A DNA stretch of 64,000 nucleotides from Spongospora subterranea f. sp. subterranea (lineage: Eukaryota): assembly GCA_049724395.1 (NCBI GenBank), contig JAUGWO010000102.1, positions 248,001 through 312,000 of the forward strand. The letters run 5' to 3'. The notes under the pieces are model-generated. The model searched no databases and was not told the DNA's origin. It was given only the letters and a program-made list of their open reading frames with translations. Numbering within the stretch: position 1 is the first letter of the stretch; each line of letters starts with the position of its first letter. Shown piece after piece: positions 4,668 through 60,319 of the stretch. Made by a program: the position numbers and the translations under genes.

Positions 4668-5153
4668 CTCTAGACCGTTCCCAGCTGTTCCCAGCTACAC
4701 CTGTAGGGCGATAGGCGCACAATTTGGGAGCGGTGATCTCTGAGTCCCGGGAAATCCATTGCGACACTGTATATTTATCAGAATTTGAAGTGTGGTTACG
4801 GTATATTCATCAGATTTACAGACTTTCTTCAAAAGACCAACTCACTATATTGAACGGGTCTGATTTCTTATCTTTTCTGCTGTAATGAACGAACATTTCT
4901 CCAATCGCATATCAGTTGTTCTGAGCGGCAGCTTTGTTTATTACAGTGGTGAATCGAAAGGTGAAGCTGGTTCAGTCGCGCCCACTCCAGTACGAGTGTT
5001 GGCGACAGGTTCTCGGGTTTGGCCCGGTCATCATCAAGCTTTAGCGTAGAATCCATCACATCCATCAAAACACGTCGCCCGCAACATTTCCGGCCCAGAA
5101 CTCGGGGTCGGGGCAAATCATCAGATTAATTTCTTTCTGGAATTAAACACGCG

Positions 5154-7180
5154 ATGGCTGTGGCCGATTCCGTCCCTGATCGATTGATGACCGTCGCCGA
5201 AGAGATAGTATTCCGGGTCCATTCGGCCTATACCGACGACGTTGACGGACTGGTGGCGATCGGCAAATCCCTAGGGATAACTATCGAGGTTCCTCGTTCG
5301 AAGGTATCGGTTATGCTCGTGGGGAACCATTCCGCCGGCAAGAGCTCGTTCATCAACTGGTATCGCCATCGCCCATCGTCCGGCTATCGGTGGACTGATC
5401 GTTGCCGCTAGGTACATTGGCGAATACGTTCAGGTAATCGCATATGCGACACCCCCTGGCACAGACGTGGACGGTTGAGTGTGTTGATCTGAACCCAGTT
5501 GGAAAGCGTGGCGATGGAGACGAACTCGTTCACGTTCGTATCGCACGGGAAACGAAGGGAGACGTTCAAGGTCGGTGATGATTACTCGCTGCTCCAGAGC
5601 CGATCTGATATCTCACGATCGATCTCGGTATAATTCAGGGCCGTGCCACCATCAAACACAAACCTTGGCTGGCCGATATCGAATCATTCCCTGGCGCTAT
5701 CGACAACCTGTCCACACAAATCTCCAGCTCCAGGCACAACCTGTTCGCCATGTGCGATTTCGTGGATACGCCGGGTCTGACTGATGGATCGCTGAAATAT
5801 CCATATCCTGGTTGGGCGGTTGCTGGAACATGGGCCTCAATCCCGCTCGACTCACCATTTGTGTTTGGACAGTCAATGAGATACTGGAATGGCTGGGGAT
5901 TCGTGCCGATCTGATTCTGGTGTTCTTCGATCCTCATGGCCAAGCACTGTGTGCTCGGACGTAATACTGGACCTCCCTGGTCGATCGGCGGACCTGTTTC
6001 TGACAGCGATCTCTCTGCAGGATGAATGTGGTCCATCGACTCAACAAGAACTGCAAACCCAAGACGCACTACTTCCTGACGATGGCGGATAAGGTCTGGT
6101 CACTTGGCGAGCATCCGCGCCCAACCACGCCCTGACCCCGATCACGATCGCAGATCTCCTCAGAGAAGGAGCGATCCAAGGTCATCCTGCAGGTCGCACA
6201 GTCGCTGAGTCACGCTCAGACGCGTCCGTCGACAATGTCGGGAAATCATCATCCCGACGCCGTTGCCGTTGACCACCAGGGCCAAGAGACCTGGCTGGGA
6301 GAGCACGCCCTTCGGTAAAATGATGATCGCCCCTCTCCACTCAATCGAAATTTCCCTGTCTGACGACCGTGTGTTTTGTTGCCAGTGTTCGCCCGATCTA
6401 TATCCCAGAGAAGGTGCAGCACGGCGCCGACCTCAGCCCCGATTTCAATCGAATCGACGAGGTCCTGGAGCTGATCGCCGACGCCGTCAACCAGAACGTG
6501 CAGAATCACATCGAACGCTTTGAGAACGACAGCCTGATCCTGCTGGATTCGGTCAACAAATGTCTGACCAGGTAGATCGCCGTGCCCGCCCTCCACCGTC
6601 ATTGACGACTGATTACAAGATACGAATGGCGTCGGAGAATCAACGACGTAATCGGGTCGTTTCGGATGTTGTGTTTGATATTGACCTGGTCTATTCCCAT
6701 GATCCTATCGCTATATCTGTTCTACATGATTCACCCCCTGGTTCTCCCCAAGTAAGTGGTGCTGCCCCCATTGCCTCTCGCGCCTCAAAAACGCTGTTCG
6801 CTGACCGGTTGCGGGTGCCCGAATCGAACAGGGAATTCCTGGGTCTGCCTTGGGTTCAGAAGATGTTGCAGACGGCGATGGCATCGTTTACATGGGTCGC
6901 TGAACAATGGCCCGAACTGATTCAGATCGAGCGAGCGGTTGTTTTCCGGCATTGCGTTCTCGTTTTCCTGATCGCGGCCGCCGCAGCCGTTGCGTTCGGG
7001 AAACTGATCGTGGGCAACATCTCGCCACGTGACGCCAGAAGACTCTACACTCACCAGGCGCAGCTTCGCAACAACGTCGAAGGTACTGAACCAGCGTTTG
7101 CCGTTTGATGATCGCTAACGATGGGAGAACAGTTCAGGTGCCGTTGCACTGGAAGACCTTCTTCTCAGATTCCACCTATG
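5154..7180 (+). CDS. EHD/dynamin-like P-loop GTPase with C-terminal hydrophobic segments, multi-exon
   Basis: G1 MLVGNHSAGKSSFINWY, G3 DFVDTPGL, hydrophobic C-terminal stretch (HCVLVFLIAAAAAVAFG). 3' end approximate. Confidence 0.75.
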
Positions 7181-7241
7181 AATAAACACACGAGTTCAGT
7201 AAAACAGGATCGAGTGCCCGGTACCTGATTCATAGCGCCAA

Positions 7242-8025
7242 ATGGATGAAGGCGATCCGGTCGTGGGCGAATCGTTCGAGAACGCGTACGTGAAGGACAC
7301 GAAACGGTGCCTGCTGCGGTTGGAGAACGCGGCGAACACGGGGATCGGGGAGATTGTCGAAGGGATATCGGAGCTGAGTGTATTGTGCTGGCTGGGCGGC
7401 CCAGCGGTGCAGATCCCGGTTGGGACCAGCCACATCGTCGACAGGTTCCACGAATGGCTCCAGGGCAGGGCGCTTCCCATCGACAACCTCACCGACGATC
7501 AGGTCTTCGCCCTCCATCGCGCCGTTCTCGAGGTGGTCTCGATCGTCTGCCGACGGTCGAAACCGATCCAGGATCCGCCTGAAGCAGTCGCTGTGGATCG
7601 AGGTTCTGGTAAAGTTCTTGAGTCACCCGAGGGATAAACTGGTACAATTCCTGTCCAAGACGACATGATCTGCCAAACTCAACATTGTGTGTTTCGCTAG
7701 CGACAATTGGCGGTGACGTGTTTATTGTTCATAATCATCAACAATACCGCCAATCAGTTCGCCATCATGAAGGTTCATGGGATTCAGGTGGGAAGCGGCG
7801 CCGCTCTCGATTGTTGTTGTGGTTATTGACCTGGGGGGCGGTACTTTGGCCAACGAACAGGGGGCCATCGAGAATATCTGCAATCTGGATTGGTCGCTGC
7901 ACGTGTCGAACCACGCCGACGACCTGCTGAACCTGTTGGATCTAGCCCAGCACGCCATCCGGAAGGACGGGGCCGGGAACGAATCCCTGCTCATCCTCAT
8001 GCAGCAATTATCACGACAGGGATGA
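7242..8025 (+). CDS. Armadillo-like helical protein resembling ARMH2; needs a 1-nt frameshift at ~7575
   Basis: Reconstructed LCWLGG...VLEVVSIVCRRSKPIQD/RLKQSLWIEVLVKFL...LAVTCLLFIIINN...NLDWSLHVSNHADDLLNLL parallels my recollection of ARMH2 (LAYTGG...CWCYLNPVSQKRAK...ENWSGWTENFAEVL). Two GT-AG introns splice in phase once one C is removed. Confidence 0.55.
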
Positions 8026-8537
8026 TCATGACCATCATCATTAGACCCGTCATTTCAATTACAACGATTGTATAAAGGGTAAAATCGCCCATAAAAAAAC
8101 GGCCGATTGTCGTCGCCTGCTATTTAATAAAAAAAAACAACGTGTTTCATCACATTCGTGCTCTGCAATAGATAAGATCGGGCTGTTTCTCCCTGAACGA
8201 CTCCTAGAATTGCAAACAATTCCTGCATAGGGAGATGGGCAAATTCACAGTCCGAGAAGGGAAAACGGATGATGATCTGATATGGTTTCGGAAACAACAG
8301 CACCATTGGTGAGATTGAGGGGAAATATTGCTAATCGATGGAGTAGGAATAGATATTTTCACAGCTCATAGCGAGAATAAGATCGTGTACAAATTACGAT
8401 TGGTGCAGAATCCCAACCCCCATATTACGTTGGTTTTGGGTGTCGGGTTGCAATCGTGTGGGAGAACAAAGTGGGGGCGCTAGGCTTCCCCTGGATTATC
8501 TGCCAAGATTGACGAGCTCAGGCGCGTTTCGGGCGGT

Positions 8538-11381
<2,844 letters not shown>

Positions 11382-11638
11382 AACACAAAATGGTGAAATA
11401 CATAACCACATTATCCCAGTCGTATTCTGCAGAGTCGCTCAAAGAGAGGTCATCGGCACCTGGAAGAAAAACTGACGTTTCGAGAAAGCGTCACCGTTCT
11501 TCGGCGAGGAAACCGGTGTCGTTGTTGAGTCAGATCGACATTCACTTATGGGGACGATTATTCCAGAGATGAATGGCGTTATTATTGGTAGTTTGGGCTG
11601 ATGGCGATTGTATAAGAACATATTGCAGACCCCCACCG

Positions 11639-13123
11639 TTATAATGGGGGATCGTCCGGCGAACTCCTCTTGACCGGCTCTGGTGGTAGACACCTCCTCA
11701 GCAGAACCTGGACCACTCTGTCGAACACGTCCTCGACATTAGCCCGGTTCGTGTTGCACGTGGTGTAGATCGTGATGGGATTCGTGAGTCGATTGGCGCA
11801 TCGCAGCTCGAACAGACCCCGGATGAACGCCAGGCCGGCGTCATAGTCACTTCCGCCCGTGTATTCAGGAAACGTCTTGGACAGGCCGGAATACTGCAGC
11901 TTTTCGCGGAACAGGTCGGCCTTGTTCAGAAACAGGAAAATCGGCACCTTATCGAAATACGCTGAAAAAGCAACGATGGTGTTGACCACACCGTCTCTAT
12001 TCTGAGAGGAATTCACCTTACGGGAGGAGCACACTTCCTCGAACAGCTTCAGCGATTCGCACATTCTGTTGACAGTGTCGTCCTCGAACAGCATCTGATC
12101 GTACTCGCTCAGCGCCGCGACAAAAATGACGGTCGTGACTTGTTCGAAGCAATGCAGCCATCTTGATTGGCAGAACAGCAGACGATGAGTTTAGGCGGAC
12201 GCACGCTGCCAGGGTTGTGGGGACTTACTTGCGTCGTTCGCTCCGTTGCCCGCCCACGTCCACTATCTTGAACAGGGTCGAGCTTTTCCCTTTGAACTCT
12301 TTCTCAGTAATGCCAGTGGACGATACGCGAACCTGATCGGATTCAGCGCTTAGGGGGGAGGGGGTTGGTCGGCGTTCGGCACCGCTTACCATGAGGATAT
12401 CCTGTTTGGAAGGAATATAGCGATCGGAGACGATGGCGCTGATCTTGTTCAGGAAATAGGCTGTGGATTCCTGAGCGTGGAACAGATGCCGATGCTTGTA
12501 TGCGTTCTGCACGCCGGGATCGGCCCAGAACACTTTCATCATCTCCCCAACCTGAACAGGAACCAGGAGATCAGATGAGGAACGGTACGAACACTGAACG
12601 GACCAGTTTCGACGGTTTCAACGTTTTCTTATCAGCCTGTAGGAAAAACCTCTTGGCTTCGAAACTGTTGGGACGCATTCGAGTGTCTAATCCTGGATCA
12701 AGGCTATCGGTGGCGAAAAGAATGCACTGTACAATTAGCAGACACATTTGGCAAATGTGGGCGATCAACGAATCGCCGACCAGTTACTGACGTTGACGCC
12801 TTCGACAACATTGAGAAAGATAGCGCGTTTGAATTCCAGACGCTCTTTGATGGTCATTCCCGCCCCATATATGGACACCAACTGTTTGAACAACGTCGAT
12901 TTACCCGAATCTCCTAGGAAATGCGCAGAGCGCTTCAACAACAACGTATCACGCAAATGGGGAAATAATGGCTATCAGAACCTGGACCAAGGAGCAATAT
13001 CCGGAAAGTGGTATCAACTCGCTGCCGATCCAAGACGAATTCTTTGTCAAATAATCGAGAGCGGGCCAGCTGTTCGTGAGAATTCACCTTTCTGGAACCG
13101 CAAAACCCAAAGCATCGTGACAT
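11639..13123 (-). CDS. Heterotrimeric G protein alpha subunit (atypical), multi-exon
   Basis: ILLLGPG/DSGKST across an intron, YIPSKQDIL, RVSSTG, DVGGQRSERRKW, NRMCESLKLF, FLNKADLF, TTCNTN. Confidence 0.93.
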
Positions 13124-16247: not shown

Positions 16248-16982
16248 CATTTGTCGGAAGGATGGCTACGAGAGGTGATCGTCGCCATACCGCTGTGGCC
16301 AAGTTCAGAAAGCAGTTGTTAGTACGGCGTCTCCTAATCAGCGCATGATTTAGCGGCTCAGAGCTACGTTGTCGGCGATGAACCGCTTGAATAGCGAATA
16401 CATCAACCTTCCTGACGCTGATGAATTTATGTACAAAATGGACGTGAGTCGATGTAGGTCTCGTATGGCATCACGTCATTTACAGTATCACAATTGTTCA
16501 AAGGTTGCCTTACCCAGCTCACAAGTCGATGTGAGCTCAAAGCCATGTAAACCCACTGGCAAAACAGAGCAATCTGTTCGATGGACCCCCAACGCGACTC
16601 AATGTCTGATTGACGAGCTGGCGAAAACGAATCGCAACCCGATTTTTAAGTCTGAAAAGGACAAGATCAAGTTGCTGGTTGGACCGAAATCATGAAAGGA
16701 CTTGCCAGGGCAGGCCATTCTGCTTACGAAACAATTGTGATGCTGTAAAGGACGTGATGCCATACGAGACCTACATCGACGGCGTCCATTTTGTACATAA
16801 ATTCATTAATGTCCGGAAGGTTGATATTTTTCGCGATCCAAGCGGTTCATCGCGACAACGTAGCCCTGAACCCGCTAAATCATGCGCTGATTAAGAGACG
16901 CCGTACTCTAACAACTGCTCTCTGAACTTGGCCACAGCGGTCTTGCAACGATCACCTCTCGTAGCCATCCTTTCGACAAATG
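16248..16982. repeat. Long imperfect inverted repeat: arms 16248-16498 and 16730-16982, ~230-nt spacer
   Basis: catttgtcggaaggatggctacgagaggtgatcg...cagtatcacaattgtt is the reverse complement of aacaattgtgatgctg...cgatcacctctcgtagccatcctttcgacaaatg, with scattered mismatches and bulges. Confidence 0.95.
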
Positions 16983-17069
16983 TTGTTTTTTATTTCAAAC
17001 GAAACAACGGCTCGTCATGCGTTGATGCTCAACGAAGTGCAGCAGTTTTTTTTTCTAATAACTAGATTA

Positions 17070-18453
17070 ATGACTCTTCGTGTTGTACAGGCACCTTGCT
17101 GGCTTGTGCACCTCTCTATTACGCTAATGTTCGTCATGGTGATATAACCTATAGTTCTTGTAGAGAATGGCCAGCTGCCAGATTTTATGCCACAGTTCTG
17201 CATCCACGACGTCTAACTGACCATAACGCCGCGTTTTTGGACGATGGCGATATTGTTTGCAACAAGCCCACTGAAGAGATGTTGTCGGACGCAATCGAAA
17301 GGGAACCTTCAATCCAGCATGAAACTGATCTCACCCAGGGGCTTTCATCGGGCCAAAATTCCTCGAGCTAGACAAATCCATCATGGCCAGGAACACGCCG
17401 TCAAAATACACAGCGGCACCACATTGTTGACGGTAGTGTAGAGCACTCACATTCAAGAGACATGTTCCGTTTTCTATCGCCACTGGTTTTCGAGGATCAC
17501 CTCACAGTTTGGACAAAGAATGATTGCGACATCAACAATCATAGAGCCGAATTTATACAAAATTTCTTGCTGGATGCATGAGGCAAGCAGACCCTTTCTA
17601 GCAAATTGACCATCATCAAGTTACATTGGACGACCACAAATATGCGGATCAGTCTTATCCCGAATTTTTATCGTGATTATCGTGTGAATGAATCACGAAT
17701 CTGAGTGTTCATACTCTGAAGAACAGGCAGAATGGATCTGCAAATGTCTGCGTCGCCCCATCACCGACCGCAGTTAGCAATCGATACGAGTAAAGGCGAA
17801 TACCTGATGCGGATGCCGTTATCGTCATTGGCCTATAATGTTTACAAGACTAAACGCTACTATTAACGAGGATACTCCCAAGATTGGATAAGTATTTCGA
17901 ACGGTAATCTTTGACCGGTACGGTGAAGGTATCTTGGGAAATGGTCCGACGAGGAAAATAACGCCCTTTGACCCGAGTGACCTACGACTGGTTTGACCCA
18001 AGTGATTCGCGCGTTGTCGCAATATATCCTCCAAACTAAAAAAGGACCATGATGGAGCAAGTTAATTCTGGAGAACCGTATGAAGGATTAATTATTACAC
18101 CAACGCTAAGAGTTGCCGAATCGATGCTCCTCTTTGGTGAACACCTGAATGTTTTAATGCCAGAAATGGGTGCAGAACAACTATCGGCATATGATGAGGA
18201 ACTATACACCAGGATAACCGGCGGGTCATATTATGGTGACGCCGAGATAGAGGTGGACGAGCAATTCCCTGAACGGCCGGCAATCGATGCTCCAGGTGTG
18301 ATGCCTAGAGAACGCGGTGAAAGCGAATCCTGTCCCTATGGTGATGATCAAGAAACGATTCGCACTGATTATTCCCCTGTTGAAGGAAGGTCGATGACCA
18401 TTCACGAACTTGTTTATAACGCGATGCCCGAGTGTTTTATTACCGAGATCTGA
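17070..18453 (+). pseudogene. Degraded intronless coding sequence (possible secreted protein relic); intact 134-aa acidic tail at 18049-18453
   Basis: Protein-like stretches broken by stops and frameshifts lead into the 18049 ORF; hydrophobic signal-peptide-like start at ~17070 if one frameshift is allowed. Confidence 0.35.
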
Positions 18454-19904: not shown

Positions 19905-20229
19905 TAAAGTCAATGTTTCGAAATTGTTTGCCATGGAGTTTCGATAACAATGTAGTACATCTCACTTGATTAACACTTTACATACGAACAAATCAGTACC
20001 TTCAGCAGGTGCAGTCTATCATCTTTTGGAGTACTTGCTAAGTGCATTACCTAGACTTAACACAGGTAAAGGCTGGTAAAGGTGACGCAGCGAAGTCAAT
20101 ACGGTGTCAAGTTCCGCCCGACTCTCAGCTACAAAACTACGATGGCAATTGGCGTTAATGTCTCAAATTTGTTGAACTTGTCAATTGCATCGTCATACTT
20201 TCGTCGCTTTAAAAAGCAATTCATACGAC

Positions 20230-20794
20230 AGCATAATGGTACCAACTAAACGGGATCTCCGCTACATGAAGCTTAATAGCCTTTTCAAAACAATCGAACT
20301 GATCGCAATAAGCAACGATCCCCCATTTTAATAGGTGGTTGACTTTGCATCTACTGGCGTTCCCAGAAAAAAACAAGAGTGTGCGTTGATAACAGATGGA
20401 TCATCACGGTCGGTATCTGAGCGTTCAAAGACTGGCGTTTGGAATTCCTAGCCCTGTGATTATCGGCCGGCATCAAACCGACTTTGATACACGCTGAATT
20501 TGACCTCTTGCAAGACGACAGCAATGACCTGTTCACATCGTCGCCACCACCTCTTTTCCTTGGTGCCAGAACTGCGACTCGCAAAGAGAAACACTTTTCT
20601 GGGGTGTCCGCTTCAGGTTCTGGTAGGATAAATTCACTGCTCCCTTCGCCGTGAATACTTTGCTTGAACGCCAGTAGATTCAACGTCAACAACCTATAAT
20701 AGTAATCGTTGCTTATTTCGATCGGCTCGATTGTTTGAACAGGTTATTGAGCTTCGTGTAGCGAACATCCTGTTTTAGTTGGTACCATTATGCT
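20230..20794. repeat. Imperfect inverted repeat: arms 20230-20362 and 20666-20794, ~300-nt spacer
   Basis: agcataatggtaccaactaaa...atctactggcgttc vs gaacgccagtagat...tttagttggtaccattatgct. Confidence 0.92.
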
Positions 20795-21166
20795 CTCATG
20801 CTGTGCACTACACGGAATACCTGTTTGGATGAGATCAGGGGTTTCGTCAGTCGCAGCCGATCTTAGATTTAATCTCGCGAGAGCTTTGGGTGAAAACTAA
20901 TTCTCCAACGGGAATGCATAGTGCATCTTTCAGGACCATGCAATCCGAAGCACATGTTAAACGATATTGCGGTTTGTTTCAAAACATTATCACATCAAGA
21001 TCGTATAGAGATCGCGAACTTTTGATCAACGAAAAGTTGGTATGTCTTACGAAAATTGCTGCAACGCAATCAAGTATCGAATCAATCTAAAGGTTTCACC
21101 AAAAAAGATGTGGGCCTTTTACACCCAAATGAAACGACTGTTAATGATATTTATTATCGATAGGTT

Positions 21167-55539: not shown

Positions 55540-57433
55540 CTAGGTTGACGGTTGCTCAATTTTTGCAATTATTCGTTCAAAAAAATCGCATGATTTTTTC
55601 ACTTGACTGGAGAGAAATGCAAAATTGGCTGCAGTGTCACTCTGCATATTACCTTCCTTATTTTCGGAATTTTCCAGTTCATCCATGTACATGTGCAGCC
55701 TTTGGAAAAGGCTGTCGAACGCGGTAACAAGCTGTACGAATCAAATATATAATCATCACAGCGTCCCGACGTAAACTCCATACCTGCCCTATCTGATGAA
55801 CATCGTCCTCATTGATAAGATCAGGCTTGAGCTTTGATTTTTTTTGTGCAGCTTTAACAGTTCTCGACCGGATCTTGCGCCTGAAGTAAGGTTTCGAAGA
55901 GCGCAATTGCTGTTGATTTTAAGCTCATGATTATGAATTTACAAGAGGCATACCTGGATTTGCAGCTTCAAATGCGTGTTTTCTTTGCCGAGTTCGTTGA
56001 TCGAATGATTCTTTGTAGAAATTTCTCGTTTATTTCGTTTGATGGTTTTTGTCAAATCAGCGATGTCGGAAAACCCAAACGAGGACAAAAATTCTTGAAA
56101 GTCGTGGGTTAAATCTGGCGTCGTTATTTGTGGTGATGGGATGATGACCTGCAACACATTAGACTTCTTTCCAGTATCTGGCGCATAATTACTGTTTTGG
56201 TACTGGAATGTTCATGGACCGGCGCTGCACGAGCTTGAGCCCATGCACTCGGTCTCACCTGAACATTGCTCGGCACTTTGGCTGTGGCCCATTTGGCCAT
56301 CAAAGGGTCTCCATGCTAAATGCAGACATATAGCCTGTCGAATGGAATATGAACGCGTTCACTGACCTTGCTATCTTGCCTATTGACCAAAATAGATTTC
56401 AAGTGAGCGACCAATGCCACATCTAATCCAGGATTGTCATCGATGGTGATTGAGCACAGCGATTGATTGATTTGCAGCATTTCAATCAGTGCACAAATGG
56501 CGACATTTGTGAGCTGATTTGAGCTAAGATTGATATCCAGAACCCATTTGTCGTCTGTCAGAGCCTCGATCAAGCTAGGATACTCAGTAAAAGCATCACG
56601 AATTCAAATATATCTCATACCATTTAACCCCAATATCGCCAAGGCGGTTATCTTGTAAGTCCACACTCAGGACGCCCAATGTAGACATACCCGGCATTCC
56701 ATCATTGTCACGTAATCTATATTGCCATTTCGCCACATCTCGACGAATATTATGATTGGAGATTACATCGCTGAAATGAGAAGCGCTACTCTCGTTGAGC
56801 CCGCAATTGATGAAGTGCCAGTGAGTGATCTCAGATGATATTAGCTGTTGCATTATTCCTAATTCAAATATATTAGCGTTGAATATGAGCGCAAACAATA
56901 TTGATTACTGGATAACAGCCCAGAATCTAATACCACATTTCTTATAAATATCGATTTCAGTGTCTTCAATGAGCCCTTTACTATTGCAGGAATCCGCTTT
57001 GCAATACATGGAGTTACAGAATCGAATTCTACACACGTTAGTTCATGGTTACGACTTAGACCTCGGATAAGGTTTTTTGCAAGCTCATTTTCGGTTGACC
57101 GTGTCGATGACGGCAAACTATTAACACGAGCCTTTGTGTGTAGACGTTGTCGTTCTGAATTGGAGATGCGAACGACTTTGAACGTTGGTACAGCATATAA
57201 TACTTTGAATAATGATTCGGCGATAAATGCAGTGGTTGAATGGATATCGATATCAAGGGTATCTTCCCCTAGCAGTCTCATGACGGAATCAGTAACCTGC
57301 ACATGCTATGCTATCAGTGATGACAGGTTCGAAGAGCAACGCCCCCGACCTGAACGGATCGAGCATCACATTTTTGTTTGAACAGCGTCTGTTTGGCATT
57401 GTAATCTTGAAATGTCTGTAATTTAGTTGACAT
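55540..57433 (-). CDS. CEP78: Centrosomal protein 78-like LRR protein, multi-exon
   Basis: ISNHNIRRDVAKWQYRLR, LQDNRLGDIGVK/CLIEALTDDKWVLDINLSSNQLTN...LIEMLQINQSLCSITIDDNP, followed by coiled coil. Confidence 0.8.
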
Positions 57434-57892
57434 TTTATTATGAACAATGGCAGCAGTGAGAGCTCTCCTAGCCAATCCACTCAAAGAGAACAGAATTTCA
57501 GTTACTGAACACTACTGTAACTGAACAAGCGGCACACTGGGCCTTATACCTATACTGCTCTGTGAGACTGTGCCCAAGTGGGCAAGGCTGACGAGGAGAG
57601 ACAGGTTACCGGGGCTGACAGACAAGGATAAGCGGGAAAGGTGGGGTGATGGGCCCCGGTTGTTGACAATAAAACGGTGGATGGACCGGGTATTTATTTA
57701 ATGGCAGATAGGTTGTCGTCCGAAGAGGTTCATGTAATTCGACAAGTTGGTGAAGACAGCCAACAGTGAGAGACGACGCTGAGTCTGTCAGCGATTCCTG
57801 ACGAAGCATGACGCTTAGCCAATGTCGAGATCATGAAGAACATGTACGCCGACATGACTGGATTTATATCTTTTTTTTTTGTATGTACAAAA

Positions 57893-57975
57893 TTGCACGA
57901 TTATTTGCACGATTATTGTTTTGTCCAAGGTGCACTATTATGTGCACTATGTGGCGCTAATACGCACTATTGCAC
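57893..57975. repeat. Short degenerate tandem repeats (tgcacgattat / gtgcactattat)
   Basis: ttgcacgattatttgcacgattat and gtgcactattatgtgcactat directly before the 58-kb inverted repeat. Confidence 0.7.
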
Positions 57976-58443
57976 ACCTGGCGCTTGGATCAAACTCCAG
58001 AGACTGCAGCAACATCTGCTGTCCAAAAAAAGGACGAGGTATTCATAAGGATTACGGCGAGCACCAAGTCAAATGCTGGAAAAGCGCAACGGTGCCAGAG
58101 GAGTACGTCGGACATGCACCACCGGGGAGGCCCAAAAGCATAAAGCAGTGGAGCGAAAAAGGTACCAATCCGACGCGTACAAACGCGCGCGCCCGAACAC
58201 GTGTGTTCAAACGCCTGGAAGAAGTCAATTGTACGCGTAGGATTGGTACTTTTTTCGCTCCACTGCTTTATGCTTTTAAGCCTCCGCCGGTGGTGCATGT
58301 GCGACGTACTCCTCTGTCACCGTTGCGCTTTTCCAAAATTTGACTTGGTGCTCGTCGTAATCCTTATGAATGCCTCGACCCTTTTTGGACAGCAGATGTT
58401 GCTGCAGTCTCAGGAGGTTGATCCAAGCGCCAGGGTGTGCAAT
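57969..58443. repeat. Long imperfect inverted repeat: arms 57969-58182 and 58229-58443, ~46-nt loop
   Basis: attgcacacctggcgcttggatcaa...acgcgtacaa vs ttgtacgcgt...ttgatccaagcgccagggtgtgcaat. Confidence 0.96.
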
Positions 58444-58446
58444 CGC

Positions 58447-58559
58447 AACCGCCTTGGCGATATTGGGTTAAATGGTATGAGATATATTTGAATTCGTGAT
58501 GCTTTTACTGAGTATCCTAGCTTGATCGAGACAAATGGGTTCTGGATATCAATCTTAGC
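58447..58559 (+). repeat. Inverted duplicate of a CEP78 exon-intron-exon segment (source 56523-56649)
   Basis: Identical to the reverse complement of 56523-56649 except a 1-nt and a 13-nt deletion; contains the whole 46-nt intron gtatgag...tcctag. Confidence 0.95.
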
Positions 58560-59218
58560 ACATAAGGTTGCGCTTTTCCAGGATGTGGACATGCATAGGC
58601 GTACCGTATTAGAAATGATCGGTCGTGGGGTGTCTCCGGATTATGGCGTTTTAAGGCGTCGTACGTCCAAGATGCAAACGTTCGTGCAACCTCCCATGCG
58701 TAGGTACGACAGCTGGTGGTGTTACCGTCGAACAACAGATCTGGTAATTGGACGCGTCATGAAAATAAGAGACGTCCCTGTTGGAACGAGAAGATGGGTG
58801 ACGTTTGAACGCCCTATTTTCAATTAAACTTTTAGGTTTTCTTAAATCGAGGTTAATCGCCAAGCCACATTGCTATTTTACCGAGAACTGCATGAAGTTT
58901 TTTTGATGAACACGCTGCTGATGAACCCTTGATGCTGCTTGTTTACGCAAAAAAAAATCGAATTCCTGTCGTATAAACGGCAGTTATGGTTTAAACTGGG
59001 TTCTCAAAAACTTGGCGAAAAATAAGCAGCAAAAATATAACGTGATAAGCAGCGGCTCATGCTCTTCTCTCATTACGATTGCTACAGTATTACCGATCGG
59101 CCAAATGAATTTGATTGACACATGGTTGATTGTTCACTAAAGTGTACATACCCTACGATGCCCGTCTGGGTGTGTGTACACTTCATAAGACTCATGAAGT
59201 CATGAACCTCATTATCAT

Positions 59219-60319
59219 ATGACCTCTCTGAGACACGCTCATCCTGAACCATTCGTCGAGATTGTCGAAAGCCGAGACCTCGCTATGTCTCTGAGTACTG
59301 CATCCAACCATACGGCTCCCAGCTCCTGGACAGCACAGCATGATTTTCCAAAGTCACGACGAACACGTACGATATCCGGAACTTATTTCGATGGTTTATA
59401 TAACGACCTGCTTCATTCTTGGCACAACTCCTCTGAGCCTCGACCTGATCCAAGCAATATCACTGATGACGATGCAGCGTTGAACAACTTTGATCACAAA
59501 GCTGTAGACGATTTGGCAAAATGCATAATTGCCAAGAAAACAGATCGTTCTGAAGACACGCTCTCGTCCCGACCTCCATTAGATCAAGACATATTTAGCG
59601 GATTCCCAGTTATCAATATGTTTACTGCTACTGTCTAACATATTTTGTTGTCCTATCGGGGCTGAAGTGCGACTGGTTTGTGTGTTTTCTTGAGATTTCT
59701 CCGACGGACTCGATAGGTCCGTTCATTTTTATTGATGACCTTTTGACGATCAGGATGGCCTCTGATGATACTGAAGCCTGGCTACTGATAGGCGATCATG
59801 AAGATATATTAGTTTCCAGCCTATGACTTAGAAATTAAATCTGAACAATCACTACACATTGCGGCCACGGTTGCAGAAATCAAAGCTCGCATTAACCAAA
59901 TTGATTCAGAGAGTCGCAACAACGACACTACCGTGTCATCCCTTCGGCGCCAACTGCAAAAGCTTACATTCGCTCAAACCAAGCATTTAGATCCCGATGC
60001 GATTGCCTGTAGCTGCTGTGGACTAAAAATCGCTGTCATCTCTGATATTGTGTCAAGATCATATCGAGGCCAAAGCGGACCAGCGATTCTGCTCCGAAAC
60101 GCTACCAACGTCAACATTGGAGAAAAATATGACCAGATTCTTTTGACAGGATTATATACGACTGCCTCAGCTTCTTGTGAAGGATGCGGCAAGGTTTTGG
60201 GCTGGGCTTATATACATGCTCGCAATTTCACTCAGCGGTTTAAGGAAGGGATGTTCTGTCTAGAGAAAGCATACATTCTCGAGCATGTCGATAATCTGAA
60301 ACTAGTCGCTGCGAATTGA
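59219..60319 (+). CDS. Yippee/Mis18-family zinc-binding protein with long N-terminal extension
   Basis: CSCC...IVSRSYRGQSGPAILL...NV...LLTGLYT...CEGCGKVLGWAY...QRFKEGMFCLEK. Linkage of the 59219 exon is inferred. Confidence 0.85.

What the first reader, a model, noticed from the sequence alone, without database searches (positions are those of the whole stretch)
57969..58443. 215-bp-arm, short-loop hairpin between CEP78 and the Yippee gene
Seen: near-continuous duplex with a ~46-nt loop and roughly 15 differences, about half transversions, spaced fairly evenly; preceded by degenerate 12-13-nt tandem repeats. The minus strand of the right arm reads AWINLLRLQQHLLSKKGRGIHKDYDEHQVKFWKSATVTEEYVAH, suggesting coding origin. 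Inference: strong Dicer-substrate candidate.
Basis: partly seen in the sequence, partly recalled or inferred. Interest (0 to 1): 0.75.

Follow-up and report, generated by a model that had tools for sequence, protein, structure and literature searches.

The report
Transcribed hairpin in powdery-scab parasite
In the potato powdery-scab parasite, a piece of what is likely a dead repeat-family gene sits next to an inverted copy of itself and is transcribed, and the predicted 215-base-pair RNA hairpin likely feeds the Dicer-less silencing pathway described in its clubroot relative.

Summary
The hairpin is real: arms 57969-58182 and 58229-58443, 46-nt loop, 14 substitutions (7 transversions) and 3 indels. 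It stands in two DNA runs from different studies as unique sequence. The organism is Spongospora subterranea (neighbouring protein 100% identical). It is not a MITE: no target-site duplication, no close copies, and the left arm continues a broken upstream reading frame whose parent family I could not name. An inverted 116-nt copy of the neighbouring CEP78-like gene abuts the right arm. RNA contigs from one sample flank both stem ends; one low-depth spliced contig crosses the loop; both strands show spliced RNA nearby. 'Dicer substrate' needs correcting: plasmodiophorids are reported to have a single Drosha-like RNase III, which in Plasmodiophora brassicae cuts long dsRNA into 21-nt RNAs; there Dicer and RdRP are absent and the dsRNA source is called unknown. 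Two more fold-backs lie in the window. One is a Mutator-transposase relic whose full-length relative ends in the same fold-back. Best reading: a Mu-killer-like hairpin-RNA locus, a new member of the palindromic small-RNA loci known in P. brassicae. Small-RNA production is untested here.

The parts
57969..58182 (+). Left arm (214 nt); sense copy of the relic reading frame, with two derived one-base frameshifts
   Evidence: ancestral state judged from 30-nt loose ends of a related contig
58183..58228 (.). 46-nt loop; the 30 bases 58200-58229 also stand at another locus, where they continue into other sequence
   Evidence: records X1-6 and loose ends at 58229 in X1 and X2
58229..58443 (-). Right arm (215 nt); inverted copy, reads on the minus strand as the quoted peptide with one derived TAA stop
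58231..58280 (+). 50-nt GT-AG intron inside the right arm, spliced in one RNA contig that crosses the loop; its AG acceptor exists only through a 2-base change specific to the right arm
   Evidence: X6 record 14, depth 3.4, 76 nt on the shorter side
57701..58030 (+). Broken reading frame (ATG, two TGA stops, C-x2-C...H-x-C...L-x2-H motif) that runs into the left arm; parent family unnamed
   Evidence: no homolog
57893..57965 (+).
58447..58562 (+). Inverted copy of a CEP78-like exon-intron-exon piece, 3 nt from the right arm; 1 substitution, a 13-nt and a 1-nt deletion (the 1-nt deletion is absent in X2)
58475..58520 (+). Captured 46-nt CEP78-like intron; inferred to be spliced out of a + strand RNA from this copy
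   Evidence: X5 record 8: 58520-59033 joined to the exon piece 56622-56640
56520..56649 (-). Source of the captured piece, inside the CEP78-like gene
58542..58604 (-). Inferred 63-nt GT-AG intron of a minus-strand non-coding RNA heading toward the hairpin; acceptor lies in the captured piece
   Evidence: X3 record 20: joint at 58605, 11 letters unplaced; X6 record 15 starts at 58605
59082..59151 (-). 70-nt minus-strand intron spliced in the same contig
   Evidence: (CT..AC joint)
55543..57281 (-). CEP78-like gene, coding part (left neighbour); introns shown by an RNA contig
   Evidence: (X7 record 23)
59813..60319 (+). Yippee/Mis18-family frame (right neighbour)

Best explanation
A fragment of a likely dead, repeat-family gene stands next to an inverted copy of itself and is transcribed, and the RNA is predicted to fold into a 215-bp hairpin that a Drosha-like RNase III likely cuts into 21-nt small RNAs, which would silence relatives of the parent gene. 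Shown: the inverted repeat in DNA of two studies, unique sequence, RNA on both flanks and one spliced contig through the loop, related sequence elsewhere in the genome and in an expressed contig. Inferred: the origin by fold-back or template-switch duplication, with the CEP78-like piece probably added by a later switch; folding in vivo; cutting by the Drosha-like enzyme (by analogy with P. brassicae); loading into Argonaute and silencing of relatives. No RdRP is needed because the RNA pairs with itself.
For: Structure: (162 of 196 possible 21-nt windows have at least 19 paired positions). DNA. RNA, one sample (X3-X6): contigs at depth 17-31 start at 57687-57724 and, in 2 of the 3 runs that hold them (X3, X5), stop at 57974-57975, the stem base; right-flank contigs reach about 58455-58465; inside the stem 3 contigs at depth 2.3-3.5, one spliced across the loop. 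Possible target: a related ~1-kb contig at depth 123-152 in 4 of 4 of these runs, matching with 2 differences in 26 nt, 4 in 32 and 5 in 34; it holds one sense and one antisense piece, so it may itself be a fold-back. Same layout at 20227-20797, a MULE transposase relic (71% identity to P0005, E 1e-68); the last 10 codons of P0005 fit the reverse complement of its own codons 634-644, against at most 6 in 60 of 60 shuffles. Machinery: PMC4471660 passage. In P. brassicae the enzyme makes 21-nt RNAs from long dsRNA in vitro, a palindromic region yields small RNAs, and two northern-validated precursors are 462 and 433 nt (PMC13547706).
Against: No small-RNA data were seen. RNA through the stem rests on 3 contigs of depth 2.3-3.5 from one sample, in runs whose RNA status the tool only guesses; contigs give neither strand nor level directly. 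No sign of selection on pairing: G-U-tolerated changes are 3 on the plus and 4 on the minus strand, 7 changes are transversions. Contigs that stop at the stem base are also expected from reverse-transcription bias alone. The spliced form removes 50 nt of the right arm and shortens the stem (-320 versus -394 kcal/mol). The parent was not identified as a transposon (blank), and the related contig is expressed, so any silencing is incomplete. The enzyme's activity was shown in P. brassicae, not in S. subterranea.
Confidence: 0.62

Rival explanations
1. A neutral scar: a fold-back or template-switch duplication inside decayed repeat DNA, crossed by stray transcription from both neighbours and yielding few or no functional small RNAs.
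For: Both arms have decayed (frameshifts left, a stop right); substitutions fall 3/5/6 on codon positions 1/2/3; no bias toward G-U pairs; spliced antisense RNA also runs over the CEP78-like gene in the same sample, so transcription here may be pervasive.
Against: The duplex is still 92% paired over 216 columns; three such loci lie in 64 kb; one belongs to a family whose full-length member ends in the same fold-back; the enzyme in the relative cuts even a foreign EGFP dsRNA, so a transcribed stem should be a substrate.
Confidence: 0.24
2. The working part is the captured CEP78-like piece: overlapping plus- and minus-strand RNAs over 58447-58562 form dsRNA or antisense RNA that lowers CEP78-like mRNA in some life stage, and the hairpin is incidental or helps recruit the nuclease.
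For: The copy has perfect runs of 63, 29 and 21 nt to the gene; spliced RNA of both orientations is inferred over it; it is less diverged than the arms (1 of 116 versus 14 of 213 substitutions, Fisher p 0.023).
Against: 46 of the 116 nt are intron; the copy carries a 13-nt deletion and a strain-variable 1-nt deletion; low divergence fits simple youth; no expression comparison is possible from contigs.
Confidence: 0.08
3. A MITE or Foldback-type element: the arms are terminal inverted repeats of a mobile unit.
For: Arm length of about 215 bp is typical of Mutator TIRs (recalled); related short pieces occur elsewhere in the genome.
Against: No TSD: best flanking direct repeat is 4 nt within 6 nt of the ends, chance level. 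Arms lie on long unique contigs; only 3 short outside pieces of 30-53 nt were laid from the two DNA runs. The left arm is continuous with an upstream frame.
Confidence: 0.04
4. Assembly or chimeric-read artefact.
For: Fold-back chimeras are a known artefact of long-read and amplified libraries (recalled); the window has one probable base error nearby (59816).
Against: The arms differ at 17 places, and contigs of two DNA runs from different studies reproduce both arms and the junctions.
Confidence: 0.01

Closest known systems
Palindromic small-RNA ('miRNA' and PHAS21) loci of Plasmodiophora brassicae processed by PbDRL (PMC13547706; read: abstract, sections 2.2, 2.4, Discussion, Table S8 rows miR032-miR200, start of Table S6)
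   Same: Same order of organisms; intergenic palindrome; size (475 nt) matches validated precursors of 462 and 433 nt; loci are frequent (about 435 PHAS loci and 234 miRNAs in 25 Mb there; 3 long inverted repeats in 64 kb here).
   Different: Different species with no small-RNA data seen; here the coding origin, a captured host-gene piece and an intron inside one arm are visible. The paper's main text has no occurrence of 'inverted' and calls the siRNA precursor source unknown.
Maize Mu killer and Ac composite insertions (PMC3440606 and 10.1101/2020.01.07.897926; abstracts read)
   Same: Inverted duplication of a transposase-gene fragment, transcribed from its own or a flanking promoter into hairpin RNA; mixed sense and antisense transcripts. 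The 20227-20797 hairpin is literally a MULE transposase fold-back.
   Different: The parent of this hairpin is not shown to be a transposon; it is about ten times shorter than the ~4-kb Mu killer hairpin; maize uses Dicer-like enzymes and DNA methylation; silencing of an active element is not shown here.
Drosophila hpRNA endo-siRNA loci, such as Dsim-hp58 and hp88 (PMC10317233; abstract and two result sections read)
   Same: Young inverted duplication of a gene fragment, borne on a non-coding transcript, complementary to related genes, sometimes born beside the source gene.
   Different: hpRNAs are defined by Dicer-2 dependence and de-repression of targets in mutants; here the lineage is reported to lack Dicer and no target repression is tested.

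Membership tests
MITE / TIR DNA transposon | Target-site duplication flanking the outer ends | tested here: not met
   Best direct repeat 4 nt within 6 nt of the ends, for the hairpin alone or with the CEP78-like piece
MITE / TIR DNA transposon | Many close copies sharing the termini | tested here: not met
   Arms lie on unique contigs in X1 and X2; only 30-53-nt pieces from elsewhere were laid at 80% likeness. No whole genome was available, so copies under 80% are not excluded
MITE / TIR DNA transposon | Inverted repeats form the element's ends | tested here: not met
   The left arm continues an upstream reading frame across its outer end
Plasmodiophorid palindromic small-RNA loci | Intergenic palindrome of up to several hundred nt able to form a long stem | tested here: met
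   sizes in Table S8
Plasmodiophorid palindromic small-RNA loci | Transcribed across both arms | tested here: inconclusive
   One spliced contig covers 28 nt of the left arm, the loop and part of the right arm at depth 3.4; flanks at depth 17-130; one sample
Plasmodiophorid palindromic small-RNA loci | Yields phased 21-nt RNAs with 2-nt offset | not testable with these tools
   All 23 listed runs are held as contigs
Plasmodiophorid palindromic small-RNA loci | Drosha-like RNase III and Argonaute present in the organism | not tested
   Stated for S. subterranea in PMC4471660 (passage); not checked here, no genome held
Mu killer / Ac killer-type loci | Inverted duplication of part of a transposase gene | tested here: inconclusive
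   Parent of this hairpin unnamed; met for the 20227-20797 hairpin
Mu killer / Ac killer-type loci | Silences related active elements in trans | not testable with these tools
   A related contig is present in the same RNA runs; effect unknown
Drosophila-type hpRNA | Processing by Dicer-2; precursor accumulates in the mutant | not testable with these tools
   Literature reports no Dicer in P. brassicae and one Drosha-like gene in S. subterranea, so it can work like an hpRNA without being one

The most novel reading that the evidence does not exclude
Plasmodiophorids replace RdRP with hundreds of fold-back copies of transposon genes, some built into the 3' end of the element itself so that it silences its own family; this locus has also captured a piece of a centriole gene and extends silencing to CEP78-like mRNA in a stage-specific way.
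Probability: 0.15. Interest if true: 0.75.

Novelty: new member of a known kind. Interest (0 to 1): 0.48.

Why it matters
The 2026 P. brassicae study states that the source of dsRNA for siRNAs is unknown in a lineage with no Dicer and no RdRP. Self-pairing transcripts from fold-back gene relics are a direct answer. This locus gives a concrete test in a second species, with a predicted precursor, a splice variant and candidate targets. A transposase relative that carries the fold-back in its own 3' end suggests self-limiting transposons. I found no report of such loci in S. subterranea (searches; listings only; a 2026 review of its molecular resources, PMC12883290, has 0 hits for small RNA, miRNA, RNAi, repeat, inverted or non-coding).

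Tried and rejected
No whole genome is held, so copy number and hairpin density genome-wide could not be computed. Rfam: 0 matches in the window. Parent of the hairpin frame: no credible Pfam match among 38 frames around the three hairpins or for the read-through frames; 0 of 10 candidates in the 5.8-billion search, longer proteins only; 0 hits at E 0.001 among 1.84 billion representatives; no usable atlas hit; 0 of 598 and 0 of 232 pattern matches confirmed in metagenome and viral contigs; 0 matches to a DNA pattern in metagenomes; PDB best E 0.26. A likeness of the cysteine motif to BED/TTF zinc fingers of hAT transposases is recalled and untested. P0005 (MULE) does not match the 57-58 kb region. 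A possible plus-strand intron at about 57881-57929 is crossed unspliced by contigs in X3 and X5, so I do not count it. Parts without cover, which prove nothing: X7 (another study) has no cover from 57534 to 59705 while its CEP78-like contig has depth 64; nothing from X15 was laid. I laid 8 of 23 listed runs; table 8 hid 51 rows. X4 record 2, which joins 58465 to 56631 through the 66-nt shared stretch, is treated as an assembly chimera. A single-event origin of the right arm and the CEP78-like copy is weakly disfavoured (Fisher p 0.023; Poisson 0.03-0.11). No G-U strand bias in any of the three hairpins. The 17-nt motif from the 5' loose end of the CEP78-like contig is not in the window. Supplements not seen: the figure document of PMC13547706 and most of its spreadsheet (2 of 34 parts read); those of PMC4471660 (Fig. 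S9 on the RNase III genes). They may bear on precursor structure and on the S. subterranea enzyme.

Full report
Observation. Arms are 57969-58182 and 58229-58443 with a 46-nt loop; 199 of 216 columns match, with 14 substitutions (7 transversions) and 3 one-base indels. It folds at -394 kcal/mol, z -38, with 0 of 100 shuffles as stable. The quoted peptide is on the minus strand of the right arm. The tandem repeats are an exact 12-mer pair at 57893-57917 and looser units after it.

Organism and neighbours. An exon of the left gene matches a Spongospora subterranea protein at 100%. Its predicted fold is closer to CEP78 clusters (TM 0.84-0.86) than to other named LRR clusters (0.65-0.70), so 'CEP78-like' is fair. 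The right gene is Yippee-Mis18. No whole genome was held.

Real and unique. In DNA runs X1 (possibly the source) and X2 (another study), overlapping contigs cover both arms, the loop and the outer junction with 0 differences inside the arms. The arms lie on long unique contigs. Only three short pieces from elsewhere were laid: two of 51-53 nt at about 85%, and one exact 30-mer ending at 58229 that continues into other sequence. There is no target-site duplication. The MITE reading fails.

Origin. A broken frame starts at ATG 57701, carries two stops and a cysteine/histidine motif, and runs into the left arm. The right arm is the inverted copy. A related contig keeps the W-I-N-L-Q-R-L-Q-Q stretch with synonymous changes (loose ends), so the parent was protein-coding and has relatives. 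By that contig both arms have since mutated: frameshifts on the left, a stop on the right. No search named the parent. It has 1 substitution in 116 against 14 in 213 for the arms (Fisher p 0.023), so it was probably added later. Template switching is the likely cause; this is inference.

Transcription. I laid 8 of 23 listed runs, all held as contigs. X3-X6 are one sample; the tool only guesses that they are RNA, but they hold spliced junctions. Contigs at depth 17-31 begin at 57687-57724; in X3 and X5 they stop at 57974-57975, the base of the stem (in X4 at 57863). On the right, contigs reach about 58455-58465. Inside the stem there are three contigs at depth 2.3-3.5. One (X6 record 14) covers 58155-58230, skips a GT-AG intron at 58231-58280 and goes on to 58377, so a plus-strand RNA crosses the loop. 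Its acceptor exists only through a 2-base change in the right arm. X5 record 8 joins copy-specific sequence to the next CEP78-like exon piece, which implies that the captured intron is spliced from a plus-strand RNA. X3 record 20 shows a minus-strand intron at 59082-59151 and implies another at 58542-58604, so a minus-strand RNA also heads into the captured piece. The drop at the stem fits processing but equally fits library bias. A related ~1-kb contig at depth 123-152 appears in 4 of 4 of these runs and holds one sense and one antisense piece of the family 473 nt apart; it may be another fold-back.

Not alone. Two more long inverted repeats lie at 16248-16982 and 20227-20797. The second is a relic of the 3' part of a MULE transposase: 71% identity to the 759-aa S. 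subterranea protein P0005, E 1e-68. The last 10 codons of P0005 fit the reverse complement of its own codons 634-644; 60 shuffles reach at most 6. So a near full-length relative ends in the same fold-back. In this hairpin and in the finding the layout is the same: relic frame through arm and spacer, then the inverted copy.

Mechanism. PMC4471660 (passage) reports Argonautes and a single two-RNase III, Drosha-like gene in both S. subterranea and P. brassicae. PMC13547706 (abstract, sections 2.2, 2.4, Discussion) reports for P. brassicae no Dicer and no RdRP, phased 21-nt RNAs mainly from intergenic regions, a palindromic region that yields small RNAs, and an enzyme that cuts long dsRNA to 21 nt in vitro; it calls the siRNA precursor source unknown. 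Validated precursors Pb-miR041 and 045 span 462 and 433 nt (Table S8), like this 475-nt locus. The best-supported model (0.62): the transcript folds on itself, is cut by the Drosha-like enzyme, and guides Argonaute against relatives of the parent. The steps from folding onward are inferred. Against it: no small-RNA data, thin RNA evidence in the stem, and no sign of selection on pairing. The main rival is a neutral scar with stray transcription (0.24). A role against CEP78-like mRNA (0.08) is possible because both strands appear transcribed over the captured piece.

Comparison and novelty. It works like maize Mu killer or Ac composite insertions (abstracts) and Drosophila hpRNAs, but membership of either is not shown. 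It is closest to the palindromic small-RNA loci of P. brassicae. Earlier AI notes of this scan describe similar fold-backs in that species; they are unchecked and are not counted as support. I found nothing in print on such loci in S. subterranea (listings). Verdict: a real, transcribed hairpin; new member of a known kind; interest 0.48.

Noticed in passing
window 20227-20362 / 20666-20797 (relic to 20922): Fold-back in a MULE transposase relic, 71% identical to P0005; P0005's own C-terminus fits the antisense of its codons 634-644, so the family member carries the same fold-back.
   Followed up: partly
window 16248-16498 / 16730-16982: Third long inverted repeat (251-bp arms, 231-nt spacer, 229 of 255 columns match) beside the 5' end of an N1221/DUF3402 gene; a 113-aa frame runs from the left arm through the spacer, with no Pfam or PDB match.
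   Followed up: partly
window 56203-56920: Spliced RNA antisense to the CEP78-like gene in runs X3 and X4 (plus-strand GT-AG introns 56587-56643 and 56821-56876), and a contig in X6 that keeps the sense intron.
   Followed up: no
window 59816: X1, X2 and X3 all lack one base here; without it the Yippee frame extends upstream, so the window probably has an assembly error (frames).
   Followed up: partly
window 57426: The CEP78-like contig of X7 has a 30-nt 5' loose end; a 17-nt part of it is not in the window within 3 mismatches. Strain difference, far exon or chimera.
   Followed up: partly
window 58567-58581: Exact 15-nt inverted match to the left arm (58076-58090) just past the CEP78-like copy; 5 of 500 shuffles score as well. 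Possibly a further templated patch.
   Followed up: partly
window 17000-18450: Decayed coding-like sequence after the first hairpin, ending in a 137-aa frame with no Pfam match.
   Followed up: no
window 5001-13000: GC rises to 0.51-0.57 against about 0.44 elsewhere; holds a G-alpha frame at 11639-12190 and several unmatched frames.
   Followed up: no
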